Positions 3,001 to 12,000 of a stretch of DNA of 30,301 nt are shown one piece after another. This DNA comes from Sulfurospirillum sp. (GTDB taxonomy: Bacteria > Campylobacterota > Campylobacteria > Campylobacterales > Sulfurospirillaceae). The first letter of the stretch is position 1, and every line of letters starts with the position of its first letter. The position numbers are program-made. The DNA is taken from positions 1-30,301 of the forward strand of contig JASFYR010000030.1 in NCBI GenBank assembly GCA_045047115.1, read 5' to 3'.

Positions 3001-6000
3001 CCAAGCCATATTTGCATCTGCTCTGTACTCATGAGCATCTTTTTGATTCTCTTCTATATCTTCTCCATTTTCCACATCTTCTTTGATGGCCTTTCCCAAC
3101 TCTTTATCATCCTTCTCTTCTCTCTCGAGAGTCTTTTTATCCTCTTGTGTTGCCGACTCTACTCCAGTATCCAAATCATCTAACCCGCCAGCCATCAATG
3201 CATCAAGCTCTTCTTGTGTCATAAATTTCTCCTCTAAAATGAGTTTTATCAATATTATATAGAACTTTTCATATAATTTTACTTTAAAAGGAAAAATAAA
3301 TGATAGTTGACCTACATAATCACACTTCTTTATGCAACCATGCAAAAGGCAGTATGGAAGATTTTGTTCAAAAAGCAATAAAAAAGAATATTGATATTTT
3401 TGGTTTCAGTGACCACGCACCGATGAATTTTGATAAAAAATACCGTATGAATTTCGAGCAAATGAAGGGCTATGAAAAAGAAGCTCTGCATGTAAAGCAC
3501 AAATACAAAGATGAGATAGAAGTTCTTTTAGGGTATGAAGTAGATTTTTTAGAGGGCTATATTGATAAAAGAGTTTTAAATGCAGATGTTGATTATCTTA
3601 TAGGCTCAATTCACTTTTTGGATAAATGGGGTTTTGATAATCCGGAATTTATAGCCCAATACCAAAGAAAAGATATAGACAAGATATGGGAAGAGTATTT
3701 TGATGCTGTTAAAAAGATGGCGCAGAGCAATCTTTTTGAAATAGTGGGACATATAGACTTGATAAAAGTCTTCAAATATCTGCCTAAAAAAGATATTAGA
3801 CTCATAGCAAAAGAGGCGATTAAAGAGATAAAAAAAGCGGCTATGGTTGTTGAATTAAATAGTGCGGGGTATAGAAAACCTATCAAAGAGCCTTATCCAT
3901 CATCAGATATAATGGAACTTTTGGTAGAGTTTGACATTCCAATAACATTTTGCTCAGATGCTCACAAACCAGAAGAGGTAGGATACAAAATTGAAGAAAA
4001 TATAAAATATGCAAAGTCCTATGGGTATAATAAATGTGCAGTTTTTAGGAGCAAAGAACTAGAGATGGTTAATTTTTAACCACACAATAAAGCCATTATA
4101 TAGATAATTTAGATAAAATATATCAAAATAAAATTTACAAGGAGTGCACATGGGCAAATTTGTCAATAGTGTGGAAGAGTTTTTTGAGTACTGCAAAGAG
4201 AATGAAGTAGAGTTTGTTGATTTTCGTTTTACGGACATAAAAGGTGCTTGGCATCATTTATCATATACAATGCATGCCATTGATGCCGATTCTTTTAAAG
4301 ATGGTATTCCGTTTGATGGCTCAAGCGTTGATGCATGGCAGCCAATCAACAAATCAGACATGATTCTTATGCCAGAAGCCGAATCTGCTTTTTTAGATCC
4401 TTTTACAGCAGATCCAACCATCATAGTCTTCTGTGATGTTTATGATATATACAAAGGCGAACTATATGAAAAATGTCCTAGAAGTATAGCCAAAAAAGCA
4501 CTAAAGTATCTCGGCAAAACAGGGGTAGGAGATGTAGCCTATTTTGGACCCGAAAATGAATTTTTCATCTTTGATGATGTAAAAATAAAAGATGAGATAA
4601 ATTGCGCCTATTATGAAGTTGATTCTGAAGAGGGTGAATGGAGTGACAGCAAATCATATGCTGATGGTTTCAACACTGGTCACAGACCAAGAACAAAAGG
4701 TGGATATTTTCCATGTCAGCCAACCGACTCTATGGTTGATTTAAGGGCAGAAATGGTTCAGGTTCTTGAGCAGGTTGGACTAGAAACTTTTGTTGTTCAT
4801 CACGAAGTTGCTCAGGCCCAAGGTGAAATAGGTGTAAAATTTGGTACTCTTGTAGAAGCAGCTGATAATGTGCAAATCTATAAGTATGTTGTAAAGATGG
4901 TAGCCCACCTAAATGGTAAAACTGCCACTTTTATGCCAAAACCTCTTTATGGTGACAATGGAAACGGCATGCATGTGCACCAATCAATCTGGAAAGATGG
5001 AAAAAATACATTCTTCGAAAAAGGTGCATATGCAAATCTAAGCGATACAGCCAGATACTATATAGGAGGTGTTCTAAAACATGCTCAAAGCCTGGCAGCC
5101 TTTACAAATGCAAGCACTAACTCATATAAAAGATTGATTCCGGGATTCGAAGCTCCTTCAATTCTCACTTATTCTTCACAAAACAGAAGTGCAAGTTGTC
5201 GCATCCCTTACGGTTCAAATGAAAAATCGGTTCGTGCAGAGATGAGATTTCCAGACTCTACTGCTTGTCCCTACCTTGCTTTCACTGCACTTTTGCTAGC
5301 AGGACTTGATGGCATAGCAAACAAAACCGAGCCTATTGGTCCGATGGATGAAGATCTGTTTGAATTAAGCCTTGATGAAATTAGAGAAAAAGGAATCGCT
5401 CAAATGCCTCATACTCTAAGAGAAGCGCTAGAGGCTCTTTTGAAAGATCAAGATTATCTTAAAGCTGTCATGAGTGATGAGTTTATCAGCACCTACAAGC
5501 ACTATAAATTTGAGACACAGGTCTGGCCGGATGAGGGCAGACCAACAGCATTTGAGTTTAAGTCAACTTACTCTTGTTAAGCATATAAAGTAGAGGATTT
5601 CTCCTCTACTTTATAACTATACTAAGTAAATTCTACAAAATTGACGATAAAACTATCATTTTTATCATTAAAATCGACAGTTTACACTATATAAAATAAT
5701 AGAGTTAATTTATAAGTTTTATATCTTTTTTATATGATAAAATATCGTTACAAAATGACACACTTTAGAAAAAAATCTACTTTTTTCGCCCACAATATAG
5801 CATTTTACGGTAATTTTTCGATAATATTCATCTGAAGTTTACAAAGGGTACTTTTTAATAGCCTTATATATCCAAAACGAACTTTAAAATTCTCTACGGA
5901 TATAGTAAGTAATGTAAGCTACAAAAAGTAACCCCAATATGGAGATAAATTATGGAAAGTAAAAACACTCTTTTAGTAGATGTTCTTATAGTCGGGGGTG

Positions 6001-9000: not shown

Positions 9001-12000
9001 CCCGCAAATTTCAACTGCAAGAGCTGGAACTTTTGAAGTGCCAAAGAGAGATGAGAGCTTAAAGGGTAAAATTTCAACATTTAGGCCAAAACTTGACGAA
9101 GAAGATTTTATCACTCAAATCATAAAAACAGTTAGGGGAGACGGAGGCTTGGCAAATCTCTTTGAGGCAGATATCATAGTCTCAGGAGGCAGAGGGACTA
9201 TAAATGATGACATGAAACTCATCAAAGAGTTAACAAACGCACTAAAAGCTCAAGGAATCAATGCTGAATACGCCTCTAGCAGACCTATGGTTGATATAGG
9301 AATAAGCGAATATGCAAGGCAGGTTGGACAAACAGGAAAAACACTCAGACCAAAAGTCTATATTGCCATAGGTATATCAGGAGCCATCCAACACCTAGCA
9401 GGGATGAAAGAGTCCGAAACAATAATTGCAATTAATATACATCCAAATGAGAGCATTTTTTCCAATGCCGATTTTGGAATTGTAGGGGATTATAGTGATA
9501 TAGTGCCAGAGTTAATCAACAGGGTTAAAGATGGCTTTACATTTGGGGTAAAAAGGGAGAATAAAGATGTATAAGGTACTAAGCAAAAGATATCTTTCAC
9601 CTACCATAGTATCTATGGATTTGGAAGCACCATTGGTTGCAGTAAAAGCACAACCCGGACAATTTCTGATCGTAAAGTTGGATGAATATGCCGAGAGAAT
9701 TCCTCTGACTATTTGCGACTATGACAGGGATGCAGGAAGTGTCAACATAATCTTCCAAATAGTTGGTGAAAGTACAAAAGATATGGAAAAAGTTGAACCG
9801 GGAGACTATTTTGAAGATGTTGTCGGTCCACTTGGTCAGCAGTGCGAATTCTTAGAAAAAAACATGGATGAACTCAAGAAAGAGCATTTTGTCTTTATAG
9901 CCGGAGGTGTAGGAGCAGCTCCGATACATCCACAGGTAAAATGGTTTTATAAACATGGTCTAAAGATGGACATCATACTAGGTGCCCGCTCAAAAGGACT
10001 GCTGATACTGGAAGAGGAGTTTAAAAAATACACTCCAAATGTTCATATCTGTACAGATGATGGTTCTTACGGCGTACACGGAAATGTTACAGATGTACTC
10101 AAAAAACTTGTTTTAAGTGATAAAAAAGAGTTCACGCAAGCTGTTGCAATTGGTCCCATGATTATGATGAAATATGCAACAATTATGACAAAAAAACTTG
10201 AAATTCCTACTACCGTAAGTCTAAATCCTCTTATGGTTGATGGTACGGGAATGTGTGGAGCTTGTCGTGTTGAAATAGATGGCAAAGTAAAATTTGCCTG
10301 TGTTGACGGACCTGAGTTTGATGGCTTTAAAGTTAATTTTGACGAGGCGCAAACACGGCTTAGAATGCGTCAGGAAAACACACTCGAAGATGAACACGAA
10401 AATGAAGAGTGCCCAATAGAACATGAAGAGGTTCACGATGCCAAAAAACGATCACTTCCATACACAAGAGAACCACTTCATAGAGTTCACAGTTTTGATG
10501 AAGTGAATCTCGGATATACATTTAAAGAAGTTGTAAAAGAGGCAAATCGCTGTTTTTTATGTAAAAAACCAAAATGTGTCAGCTCTTGCCCTGTTGGCAT
10601 AGATATACCGGCTTTCATAAAAAAACTTAGAGAAGAAGATATCGAGGGAGCTGCAAGCATATTGCTGGCACACACCAAACTGGCTTCTATCTGTGGGAGG
10701 GTCTGTCCACAGGAAAAACAGTGCGAGGGAAGTTGTATCTCCGGCAAAAAAGGAGAGCCTCTTGCTATAGGATTGCTAGAAAGATTTGTCGGCGACTGGT
10801 CACTTCAACATATGGAAACAAAAGTACCAAAGAAAAATGGGAAAAAAGTAGCTATTATAGGTAGCGGACCATCTGGTCTTGCTGCCTCTGCCCAGCTTTC
10901 AGAATTTGGCTACGAGGTAGATGTCTTTGAATCGCTACATAAACTCGGTGGTGTTTTAGCTTATGGAATTCCCTCTTTTAGACTACCAAAAGAGATAGTC
11001 AATGCAGAAATAGACAGAATCAAAAAACTTGGCGTAAAATTTCACACAAATGTAGTAATTGGCAAAACTTTGACGATAGACGAACTGTTTAATGAAGGCT
11101 TTGAAGCTGTATTTGTTGGAAGCGGTGCAGGATTTCCTAACTTTTTGGGAATCAAAGGTGAAAATGCGATGGGCGTCCTGTCTGCAAATGAGTTTCTAAC
11201 AAGAGTAAATCTTATGGGCGGTAACAAGAAGGATTATCATACTCCGACTACAATAGGCGATAAAGTTGCCGTCATAGGTGCTGGAAATGTATCAATGGAT
11301 TCAGCAAGAGTTGCAAAAAGATTAGGAGCGCAAACCAGTATCGTTTACAGAAGAAGCTATGAAGATATCCCTGCCCGCGCTGAAGAAACTGAACACGCCA
11401 AAGAAGAAGGTGTTGATTTTAAACTTTTGACAAATCCTATAGAAATTTTGGCGGATGACAAAGGCAGAGTAAGAGGATTGAAATGTGTCAAAATGGAGCT
11501 TGGGGAACCTGATGAGAGCGGCAGAAGAAGACCGATAGAGATAAAAGGCTCGCAGTTTGTCATAGAAGCCGATACTGTTATCATCTCAATTGGCACCAAG
11601 CCAAATGATTTAGTAACTTCCACAACACGGGGTATGGCAATCACACCAAAAGGCACAATAATTATAGAAGACGACAAAACAACAGCAACAACAAGAGAGG
11701 GAGTCTTTGCAGGTGGCGACATAGTCACAGGAGCTGCCACAGTCATACAAGCCATGGGAGCCGGTAAAAAAGCGGCAAAAGAGATAGATGAGTACATAAA
11801 AAGCAAAGAGTTAAAAAACTCAAAAGTTTCTGCATAGCAACCATAAAGAGAGAAGGATATAAATACCCTTCTCTCTAGAAAATCAAACCTCCGCCAGTTT
11901 TGCTCTCCGAAGGAGTATTTGCCTTTGGAAGAGGTGATATATCGGTAAAATAATATCTTCTCTCTCCCACTAATTTATATTTTACTCCATTAGGAATATC

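What a model noticed while it worked through the whole genome (the two positions that open the first line are those of the whole stretch)
5952..11837. Operon ETF:quinone oxidoreductase - fused EtfB-EtfA - fused NfnA-NfnB in a genome without acyl-CoA dehydrogenases
Three adjacent genes encode a mitochondrial-type ETF:quinone oxidoreductase (40% to Dictyostelium ETFDH), a single-chain EtfB-EtfA fusion (648 aa) most like bifurcating clostridial ETFs, and a single-chain NfnA-NfnB-like flavoprotein (756 aa); the genome has no acyl-CoA dehydrogenase. Boldest reading: a new three-part electron path NAD(P)H -> Nfn-like dehydrogenase -> ETF -> ETF-QO -> menaquinone (possibly bifurcating to ferredoxin/flavodoxin like FixABCX), giving these Campylobacterota a second route from pyridine nucleotides to the quinone pool. 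New: Nfn as the donor of an ETF, and a lineage-restricted module.
Evidence so far: Domains and best hits: call 62 (EtfA part 43% to Thermoanaerobacterium EtfA, 40% to CarE; Nfn part 50% to P. furiosus SudA, 58% to clostridial NfnA-like). EtfB motif SDGDTAHVPSQ resembles the FAD-binding DGDTAQVGP of bifurcating ETFs. No Acyl-CoA_dh Pfam row in the genome. ETF-QO within two genes of DHODB_Fe-S_bind: 15-16 genomes of 199,903, 13-14 of them in Campylobacterales. A separate unfused NfnAB pair exists (g01226/g01227, call 13). Paper search ETF + Sulfurospirillum: 3 papers, none on this.
(Added by a program. Inside this text positions count along the whole contig: contig position 1 is position 1 of the stretch shown here. 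"Call 12" and the like, gene names such as g00115 and contig names such as C1 are that model's own, and its searches are not shown. The text may have been shortened before it was handed on; [...] marks where a part breaks off. The agent that wrote the report below was given it as the finding of a first reader that could run no searches.)

Follow-up and report, generated by a model that had tools for sequence, protein, structure and literature searches.

The report
Paired electron-splitting enzymes linked to menaquinone
This CO2-fixing bacterium carries a real three-gene unit in which two electron-splitting flavoenzymes (a quinone-linked ETF and an Nfn transhydrogenase) probably balance ferredoxin, NADH, NADPH and membrane quinone; the parts are known kinds, but their pairing offers a testable route to reducing power in a bacterial group where that route has been an open question.

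Summary
The operon is real: ETF-QO (5952-7607), fused EtfB-EtfA (7628-9574), fused NfnA-NfnB (9567-11837); no acyl-CoA dehydrogenase found in a 100%-complete genome. The conserved core is ETF-QO + fused ETF: 32 of 400 sampled Campylobacterales genomes, also Bacteroidota and Omnitrophota. The third gene varies: Nfn in 7, an NADH-type malate dehydrogenase in 22. The ETF has bifurcating-type NADH and FAD sites (with deviations) and Nfn keeps its NAD site, so 'Nfn as direct ETF donor' is not supported; coupling through free NADH and ferredoxin is. In support, NfnI-type genes occur in 16 of 32 ETF carriers versus 2 of 368 non-carriers, from two separate Nfn lineages. Best reading: a reversible two-step ladder, FixABCX-like plus Nfn, joining ferredoxin, NADH, NADPH and menaquinone; direction unknown. 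It is accessory (27 of 221 ATP-citrate-lyase genomes). Monomeric ETF beside ETF-QO, fused Nfn and etf-nfn operons are each described; my searches found nothing on this in Campylobacterota. The scan found the two-gene core and the MDH version before on other DNA (e1-706925, e1-7544037).

The parts
5584..5615 (+). Hairpin just after glnA, probable glnA terminator; separates the operon from glnA
   Evidence: 14 pairs, -18.4 kcal/mol, z -5.5, 0 of 200 shuffles
5616..5951 (+). Upstream non-coding region with blocks conserved in same-genus carriers; probable own promoter; GGAG at 5941-5944
   Evidence: alignment of 5 upstream regions; promoter scan not above chance in a useful way (25 vs 15.8 +/- 4.4)
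5952..7607 (+). Single-chain ETF:quinone oxidoreductase (FAD, quinone site, one [4Fe-4S]); member of a clade that always pairs with the fused ETF
7628..9574 (+). Fused EtfB-EtfA, bifurcating type. EtfB part about 7628-8422 (R88-x-L90-x-G92, D129-G-D-T, S227-P-T), lysine-rich linker, EtfA part about 8516-9532 (D416, R442, ET-FAD site R552/H589)
9567..11837 (+). Fused NfnA-NfnB (pattern B). NfnA part about 9567-10376 (ERxPxT, GGVG, Asp-ligated [2Fe-2S]); NfnB part about 10449-11801 (two [4Fe-4S], R472, Y594-R-R NADP site). Overlaps the ETF gene by 8 nt
11847..11876 (.). Hairpin between the operon and the convergent pbp1A gene; probable shared terminator
   Evidence: z about -5 on both strands

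Best explanation
Two reversible flavin-based bifurcating enzymes share one operon and are coupled through the free NAD(H) and ferredoxin pools, not by one donating to the other. Step 1, ETF + ETF-QO, works like FixABCX: 2 NADH + menaquinone + 2 Fd(ox) <=> 2 NAD+ + menaquinol + 2 Fd(red). Step 2 is ordinary NfnAB: 2 NADPH + NAD+ + 2 Fd(ox) <=> 2 NADP+ + NADH + 2 Fd(red). Together they form a ladder that holds NADH midway between ferredoxin and menaquinone, and NADPH midway between ferredoxin and NADH, without a proton-pumping step. When ferredoxin is strongly reduced (below about -460 to -486 mV) both run as confurcations and make NADH and NADPH for the reverse TCA cycle, partly from menaquinol. 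When ferredoxin is drained, both run forward and send three of four NADPH electrons to ferredoxin (for carboxylations, nitrogenase in relatives, or the epsilon complex I). Shown: genes, motifs, neighbours, co-occurrence. Inferred: two-FAD content, bifurcation, menaquinone as the quinone, ferredoxin as carrier, and the direction in vivo (I lean 55:45 to confurcation in this ATP-citrate-lyase genome).
For: ETF bifurcation marks defined by mutagenesis in PMC9232219 (section read): DGDT in 50 of 50 fused-clade rows, 25 of 25 anaerobe ETFs, 0 of 38 other ETFs; SPT 49/50, 21/25, 0/38; NAD-site Arg 50/50, 14/25, 0/38; EtfA R442 aligns with A. fermentans R146. Nfn motifs from PMC6405883 all present and kept in 56-61 of 61 aligned relatives; NAD-site motifs match NfnI and T. 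maritima NfnA, not NfnII. Both alternative third genes are NAD(H)-linked: the MDH paralogue has the Asp at the NADH-specificity position (D52 rule in PMC13147460) in 33 of 33 rows covering it. NfnI-type genes (over 350 bits) in 16 of 32 carriers vs 2 of 368 non-carriers; within-family exact test p 3e-11, and 4e-6 without the two families where it is forced by adjacency or n=1. The fused and unfused Campylobacterales Nfn are separate lineages (AU p 8e-5); the fused one is nearest to Psychrilyobacter (68%), so Nfn joined ETF carriers twice, and G239 has unfused nfnAB right behind ETF-MDH. Acyl-CoA dehydrogenase in 1 of 32 carriers. G000 lacks Rnf and PntB and has ATP citrate lyase, CODH and hydrogenases. 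With Fd -480 and MQ -74 mV the ladder gives NADH -277 and NADPH -379 mV, close to the cellular -280 and -370/-380 quoted. A. vinelandii FixABCX confurcates QH2 + FldHQ -> NADH about 10 times faster than it bifurcates in vitro (PMC13761266).
Against: No biochemistry or expression data. The b-FAD motif is 6 of 9 (DGDTAHVPS vs DGDTAQVGP; QVG in 0 of 50), the NAD-site Phe is Leu in 50 of 50, and the EtfA loop after R442 is changed. Half of the carriers (16 of 32) have no Nfn and G291 (98% complete) has the fused Nfn without ETF or ETF-QO. The 350-bit cut was set after seeing the score gap; counting every hit over the family cut-off gives 16 of 32 vs 8 of 368. Kin are not independent and the group for the AU test was named after a first tree, so both p-values overstate. 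Shared anoxic lifestyle could give the co-occurrence; in G285 and G317 nfnAB lies beside nifHDK, not beside the ETF. The MDH paralogue also occurs without ETF in 22 of 43 genomes. The module is accessory: 27 of 221 ATP-citrate-lyase genomes, and 5 of 32 carriers lack that enzyme. The ladder match depends on the assumed ferredoxin potential; MQ -74 mV is recalled. FixABCX can also reduce quinone without flavodoxin.
Confidence: 0.6

Rival explanations
1. The ETF/ETF-QO pair is a non-bifurcating (or leaky) NADH:menaquinone oxidoreductase, an NDH-2-like valve that reoxidises NADH made by MDH or Nfn; no ferredoxin is touched by the ETF.
For: Family-wide deviations in the b-FAD and NAD motifs; 20 of 22 MDH-type carriers lack NuoF and so need an NADH entry; FixABCX reduces Q without flavodoxin; PMC9232219 mentions two-FAD-type ETFs that do not bifurcate.
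Against: The SPT coupling motif and R442 are kept; all 8 same-family carriers and G000 already have NuoEF; a simple valve would not explain the link with Nfn.
Confidence: 0.15
2. The ETF is bifurcating but Nfn is only a co-regulated neighbour and a marker of the same anoxic niche; it serves NADPH supply or nitrogen fixation with no special link to the ETF.
For: 16 of 32 carriers lack Nfn; nfnAB next to nifHDK in 2 genomes; fused Nfn without ETF in G291; a new arrival from Fusobacteriota could settle behind any redox operon.
Against: 2 of 368 non-carriers have this Nfn type, one of them probably a contig break (G330); two Nfn lineages show the same pattern; all three genes are absent together at the syntenic site in G040 and G100.
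Confidence: 0.12
3. One reading: Nfn is the protein donor of the ETF, passing electrons from its small-subunit flavin or [2Fe-2S] cluster straight to the ETF shuttle flavin and on to ETF-QO, in a three-protein complex.
For: Tight gene coupling (8-nt overlap) and no acyl-CoA dehydrogenase; P. furiosus NfnII shows that an Nfn can lose NAD activity and may use another high-potential acceptor.
Against: This Nfn keeps the NfnI-type NAD site; the ETF has its own NADH site; ETFs 70-78% identical work in genomes with no Nfn or with MDH in that slot.
Confidence: 0.08
4. A canonical one-FAD ETF serving an unlinked flavoprotein dehydrogenase (GlcD-type C31, D-lactate dehydrogenase-type C9, L-2-hydroxyglutarate oxidase C41, glycerol-3-phosphate oxidase-type C24).
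For: Such flavoproteins exist in G000; the ETF-QO is of the mitochondrial architecture that normally serves canonical ETFs.
Against: None of them recurs beside the ETF in the roughly 50 neighbourhoods examined; sequence and motifs group with bifurcating ETFs.
Confidence: 0.04
5. Gene 3 is a glutamate-synthase small-subunit-type enzyme linked to the upstream glnA.
For: Database names (TIGR01316 above cut-off); glnA lies directly upstream in the same genus.
Against: A full gltBD pair is on C5; the NfnA part with its Asp-ligated [2Fe-2S] is fused on; a hairpin follows glnA; outside this genus the module is not beside glnA.
Confidence: 0.01

Closest known systems
FixABCX (Azotobacter vinelandii) / EtfABCX (Thermotoga maritima, 7KOE)
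   Same: Bifurcating-type ETF plus a quinone oxidoreductase with no acyl-CoA dehydrogenase; predicted reaction NADH <=> quinone + ferredoxin/flavodoxin.
   Different: ETF is one chain; the quinone reductase is a single-chain mitochondrial-type ETF-QO with one [4Fe-4S], not FixC + FixX; not tied to nitrogen fixation (nif in 8 of 32 carriers, none in G000); third gene Nfn or MDH.
Monomeric bifurcating ETF SaETF and its homologues beside ETF/Qor (Das et al. 2025, PMC12042025)
   Same: EtfB-then-EtfA fusion; that paper reports monomeric ETF clusters flanked by ETF/Qor or FixCX.
   Different: No Nfn or MDH neighbour and no Campylobacterota in the passages read; its supplementary networks (Fig. S10) were not seen and may include this clade; no bifurcation assay with physiological partners was done there.
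Fused 'Pattern B' NfnAB (Clostridium autoethanogenum, Bacteroidetes, Fusobacteria; PMC6405883; NCBIfam NF009414)
   Same: Same domain order, length and cofactor motifs; nearest named outside relatives are Psychrilyobacter (68%) and Fusobacterium (57-58%).
   Different: Scores 1025 bits against a 1103 cut-off for NF009414; host is Campylobacterota; pattern B enzymes were described as not yet characterised in that review.
Clostridium kluyveri rex-crt1-bcd1-etfB1A1-hbd1-nfn transcription unit (PMC6405883)
   Same: A bifurcating ETF system and Nfn in one operon, coupled by NADH and ferredoxin pools.
   Different: There the high-potential partner is butyryl-CoA dehydrogenase; here it is the membrane quinone pool.
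Canonical mitochondrial ETF / ETF-QO
   Same: ETF-QO architecture and [4Fe-4S] ligands, including the Tyr and Thr that raise the cluster potential.
   Different: ETF is not the AMP type; no acyl-CoA dehydrogenase; ETF-QO sits in its own 97%-supported clade with changed FAD-side motifs.

Membership tests
Bifurcating (group II) ETF | DGDTAQVGP b-FAD recognition stretch | tested here: inconclusive
   DGDTAHVPS, 6 of 9; DGDT in 50/50 of the clade and 0/38 other ETFs, QVG in 0/50
Bifurcating (group II) ETF | RxFxG NAD(H) site | tested here: met
   R88 and G92 in 50/50; Phe replaced by Leu in 50/50; absent from 38 other ETFs
Bifurcating (group II) ETF | SPT anchor of the EtfB arm | tested here: met
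   S227-P228-T229; 49/50 vs 0/38
Bifurcating (group II) ETF | EtfA Arg at N5 of b-FAD (R146 in A. fermentans) | tested here: met
   R442, invariant in 63 rows; not discriminating, also in canonical ETFs
Bifurcating (group II) ETF | Two FADs, NADH reactivity, coupled reduction of ferredoxin/flavodoxin | not testable with these tools
   needs purified protein
   paper not held
FixABCX / EtfABCX | Separate FixC and two-cluster FixX subunits | tested here: not met
   single-chain ETF-QO, 386 bits to pig ETF-QO vs 92 to FixC; below FixC cut-offs. Works like Fix, is not a member
ETF:quinone oxidoreductase (ETF-QO) | FAD domain, quinone domain and C-terminal [4Fe-4S] in one chain | tested here: met
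   PF21162 and PF05187 above cut-off; full-length match to 2gmh
NfnAB (NfnI type) | NfnA ERxPxT strand and DGTGMCGxCRx10CV [2Fe-2S] motif | tested here: met
   residues 43 and 225
NfnAB (NfnI type) | NfnB two [4Fe-4S] motifs, b-FAD Arg (T. maritima R187), NADP-phosphate arginines | tested here: met
   residues 328, 377, R472, Y594-R595-R596
NfnAB (NfnI type) | NAD(H) site of the small subunit as in NfnI rather than NfnII | tested here: met
   228 bits to NfnI, 215 to T. maritima NfnA, 131 to NfnII; GGVG, TDDGS, GPMxMK kept
NfnAB (NfnI type) | NADH-dependent reduced ferredoxin:NADP+ activity | not testable with these tools
   needs assay
Glutamate synthase small subunit (GltD) | Partner GltB adjacent and no NfnA domain | tested here: not met
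   NfnA fused; gltBD separate on C5
Canonical (group I) ETF with acyl-CoA dehydrogenase donor | AMP-type EtfB motif and an acyl-CoA dehydrogenase in the genome | tested here: not met

The most novel reading that the evidence does not exclude
In vivo the operon runs as a double confurcation: menaquinol plus reduced ferredoxin make NADH at the ETF, and that NADH plus ferredoxin make NADPH at Nfn, possibly in one physically wired complex. It would be a physiological case of quinol-fed flavin confurcation powering carbon fixation, roughly halving the low-potential electron cost of NADH in reverse-TCA Campylobacterota.
Probability: 0.22. Interest if true: 0.8.

Novelty: new variant of a known kind. 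Interest (0 to 1): 0.5.

Why it matters
How chemoautotrophic Campylobacterota obtain reduced ferredoxin and NAD(P)H is described as unclear, with no known bifurcating complex in Sulfurimonas denitrificans (10.1101/717884, passages); a review of Campylobacterota respiration has no mention of ETF or bifurcation (PMC6682613, term count). This module gives a concrete, soluble-plus-peripheral, two- or three-protein candidate for part of that group, and a cultured species, Sulfurimonas gotlandica GD1, encodes the same fused ETF (75% identity). It would also be the simplest quinone-linked bifurcating system to reconstitute (two chains against four in FixABCX). It is not the general answer: only 27 of 221 sampled ATP-citrate-lyase genomes carry it.

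Tried and rejected
Complex prediction of the ETF (1-641) with the NfnA part (1-272): verdict 'no answer', score 0.00 against a mark of 0.32, controls not folded; no evidence either way. RNA runs: no RNA holder listed; no evidence either way. 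Garcia Costas 2017 not held, so the subgroup name is untested. Nitrogen-fixation role as general purpose: rejected, nif family in 8 of 32 carriers and 0 in G000. Strict rTCA role: rejected, 5 of 32 carriers lack ATP citrate lyase and 194 of 221 ACL genomes lack the module. Replacement for malate:quinone oxidoreductase: unclear, weak Mqo-family hits in 17 of 33. Idea that the third gene is an FqrB-type reductase: wrong, it is MDH. Idea that the core MDH is always NADP-type where the extra MDH occurs: only 12 of 20 have Gly-Arg, 8 keep Asp. The C18 Nfn pair as ETF partner: rejected, its type occurs in 6 non-carriers. Recent transfer of the operon: GC3 0.30-0.32 equals the genome mean 0.30 +/- 0.04. 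Promoter scan uninformative. Paper searches: searches gave 0 papers; searches listed none on this module by title and abstract start; two searches found nothing usable on MDH coenzyme or ETF-QO residue rules.

Full report
Observation. The three ORFs are at the stated coordinates on the + strand: 5952-7607 (551 aa), 7628-9574 (648 aa), 9567-11837 (756 aa). They are tightly spaced (20-nt gap, 8-nt overlap) and bounded by hairpins after glnA and before the convergent pbp1A. Gene 1 is a full-length ETF:quinone oxidoreductase (pig 2gmh E 2.5e-114). Gene 2 is EtfB followed by EtfA, with bifurcating ETFs as best hits by sequence and by fold. Gene 3 is NfnA followed by NfnB. Each of ETF and ETF-QO is single-copy. 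PF00441 finds no acyl-CoA dehydrogenase in G000, 100% complete.

Host metabolism. G000 has ATP citrate lyase, an icd-mdh-fum-suc-oor cluster with one MDH, two pyruvate oxidoreductases, CO dehydrogenase, a canonical NuoEF complex I and an epsilon-type complex I, an FqrB-like reductase (name inferred), gltBD, and a second unfused Nfn-like pair (64 selected proteins scanned, not the whole proteome). It has [NiFe]-hydrogenases. Not found: nitrogenase, Rnf, PntB, Flavodoxin_1, Mqo at E 1e-20. Named relatives of the proteins are labelled Sulfurospirillaceae or Campylobacteraceae.

What is conserved. Of 400 sampled genomes of the order, 36 matched the ETF; 4 were weak 23-43% matches to other ETFs and were dropped, leaving 32 carriers in 9 families (my notebook entry 1 says 11 families, which is wrong). 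ETF-QO lies directly upstream in 32 of 32. The gene behind the ETF is Nfn in 7 carriers (all in the window's family; one cut by a contig end), a second malate dehydrogenase in 22, something else in 2, and a contig end in 1. In 7 of the 22 the unit sits in or beside the TCA cluster (labels). Two same-genus genomes lack all three genes and have an rmuC-like gene (name recalled, not scanned) in the slot.

The ETF. PMC9232219 (passages and the section on the EtfAB module) defines b-FAD, NAD and coupling motifs by mutagenesis. In my alignment, DGDT is in 50 of 50 fused-clade rows, 25 of 25 anaerobe ETFs and 0 of 38 others; SPT 49/50, 21/25, 0/38; the NAD-site Arg 50/50, 14/25, 0/38. R442 aligns with A. 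fermentans R146. Against a clean call: the stretch reads DGDTAHVPS (6 of 9), the NAD-site Phe is Leu throughout, and the EtfA loop after R442 differs from solved bifurcating ETFs yet is invariant in 63 of 63 relatives. I put bifurcation at about 75-80%. An ETF that takes NADH itself needs no dehydrogenase donor, which explains the missing acyl-CoA dehydrogenase (1 of 32 carriers has one). Outside the order this absence does not hold: 14 of 17 genomes had a family hit, several weak.

The Nfn. All motifs given in PMC6405883 (passages and part 1 of the structure section) are present. The small-subunit part resembles NAD-using NfnI (228 bits) more than NAD-inactive NfnII (131 bits) and keeps the NAD-site motifs. 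So its high-potential branch most likely ends on NAD+, not on an ETF.

Is Nfn tied to the ETF at all? NF004862 hits split at a gap (359 vs 264 bits). The upper group is in 16 of 32 carriers and 2 of 368 non-carriers; counting all hits over the cut-off gives 16 of 32 vs 8 of 368. One exception, G330, is 79% complete and its contig starts inside the MDH that normally follows the ETF; the other, G291, has the fused Nfn without ETF or ETF-QO. A within-family exact test gives p 3e-11, or 4e-6 without families f1 and f13; kin are not independent and the threshold was chosen afterwards. The fused Nfn groups with Psychrilyobacter proteins and the unfused ones form another clade; a single clade is rejected (AU p 8e-5, 20 rows, quick tree, group named after the first tree). 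Two arrivals of Nfn into ETF carriers argue for a functional link, though a shared anoxic niche could also produce it, and in two genomes nfnAB is beside nifHDK. Outside the order, 13 of 17 carrier genomes have NfnA over the cut-off, with no background measured.

The MDH alternative. The paralogue has the malate-type Arg102 and an Asp at the coenzyme position in 33 of 33 rows covering it, the NADH mark used in PMC13147460 (passages). The core MDH of the same genomes has Gly-Arg in 12 of 20 and Asp in 8 of 20; the 7 sequences from families without the paralogue all have Asp. That Gly-Arg means NADP preference is recalled; the paper only says Asp/Glu marks NADH, and reports that extracts of two Campylobacterota use both coenzymes. 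Only 2 of these 22 carriers have NuoF. The paralogue also occurs without the ETF in 22 of 43 genomes, in 6 of 10 inspected directly behind icd-mdh. Both third genes are therefore NAD(H) enzymes, which points to NADH as the link.

Mechanism. With NADH -280, NADPH -370, menaquinone -74 mV (recalled) and ferredoxin -400 to -500 mV, ETF bifurcation runs from -17 to +3 kJ and NADPH formation by Nfn from +12 to -8 kJ; the two switch direction at -486 and -460 mV. At equilibrium with Fd -480 mV they would set NADH at -277 and NADPH at -379 mV. Confurcation pulled by oxaloacetate reduction is downhill by 27-52 kJ per two malates (malate couple -166 mV recalled). FixABCX has been run in both directions in vitro, confurcation about ten times faster, and it also reduces quinone without flavodoxin (PMC13761266, passages). 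The direction in G000 cannot be read from sequence. ATP citrate lyase in 27 of 32 carriers (221 of 400 overall, but also high in the carriers' families) and the lack of nitrogenase tilt me slightly to NADH/NADPH production.

Comparison and novelty. Monomeric bifurcating ETFs beside ETF/Qor are reported (PMC12042025; passages, sections 3.7 and 4.2; supplements not opened and may cover this clade). Fused pattern B Nfn and an etf-nfn transcription unit in C. kluyveri are reported. Searches for the module in Campylobacterota gave nothing (listings only), in a library that lacks most subscription papers, including Garcia Costas 2017. Earlier scan notes describe the two-gene core in Omnitrophota and the MDH version in another sulfur oxidiser; I had found the MDH pattern before seeing the second note. 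New here are the Nfn version, the Nfn-ETF co-occurrence from two lineages, and the ladder reading.

Verdict. Real, well conserved, built from known parts in an arrangement I could not find described: a new variant of a known kind. Interest 0.5: it makes an open question testable for a minority of Campylobacterota, but there is no functional evidence yet.

Noticed in passing
G000 C18:16121-18402 (L150:10125-12403): Second, unfused NfnAB-like pair whose small subunit lacks the GGVG and GPMxMK NAD-site motifs; NfnII/Xfn-like, occurs independently of the ETF in two families. Its high-potential acceptor is unknown.
   Followed up: partly
G000 C25, L151:6659-19921: The canonical complex I genes are in two convergent halves, nuoA-F on one strand and nuoG-N on the other.
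   Followed up: no
G000 whole genome: No Flavodoxin_1 match in a 100%-complete genome of a group known for flavodoxin-dependent complex I; an 83-aa ferredoxin-like ORF is at C14:127508.
   Followed up: no
L117, L118, L125, L132, L133, L176, L180-L184: Many genomes of the order carry two MDH paralogues in the TCA cluster, one often with Gly-Arg and one with Asp at the coenzyme position, suggesting an NADPH/NADH pair.
   Followed up: partly
window 8951-8977 (ETF residues 442-450) and 8024-8038 (residues 133-137): Clade-invariant departures from solved bifurcating ETFs next to the b-FAD site; unexplained, may tune the flavin or ferredoxin docking.
   Followed up: partly
window about 6920-6960 (ETF-QO near residue 329): The Asn found in canonical ETF-QOs just after the GDSAG motif is replaced throughout this clade; a role in FAD tuning is recalled, not verified.
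   Followed up: partly
L116:4343-5395 and L166:7402-8420: A multi-cluster ferredoxin-like protein ends a molybdopterin oxidoreductase operon directly ahead of the module in G273 and ahead of the lone Nfn in G291.
   Followed up: partly
L169:744-9540: Unfused nfnAB two genes downstream of nifHDK in G285, same spacing in G317.
   Followed up: partly
G000 C41, L155:13951-16457: Anaerobic CO dehydrogenase with its Fe-S partner, a possible source of reduced ferredoxin.
   Followed up: no
L186:7247-8626 and L187:7040-8470: An rmuC-like gene (name recalled) fills the glnA-pbp1A slot in same-genus genomes lacking the module.
   Followed up: partly
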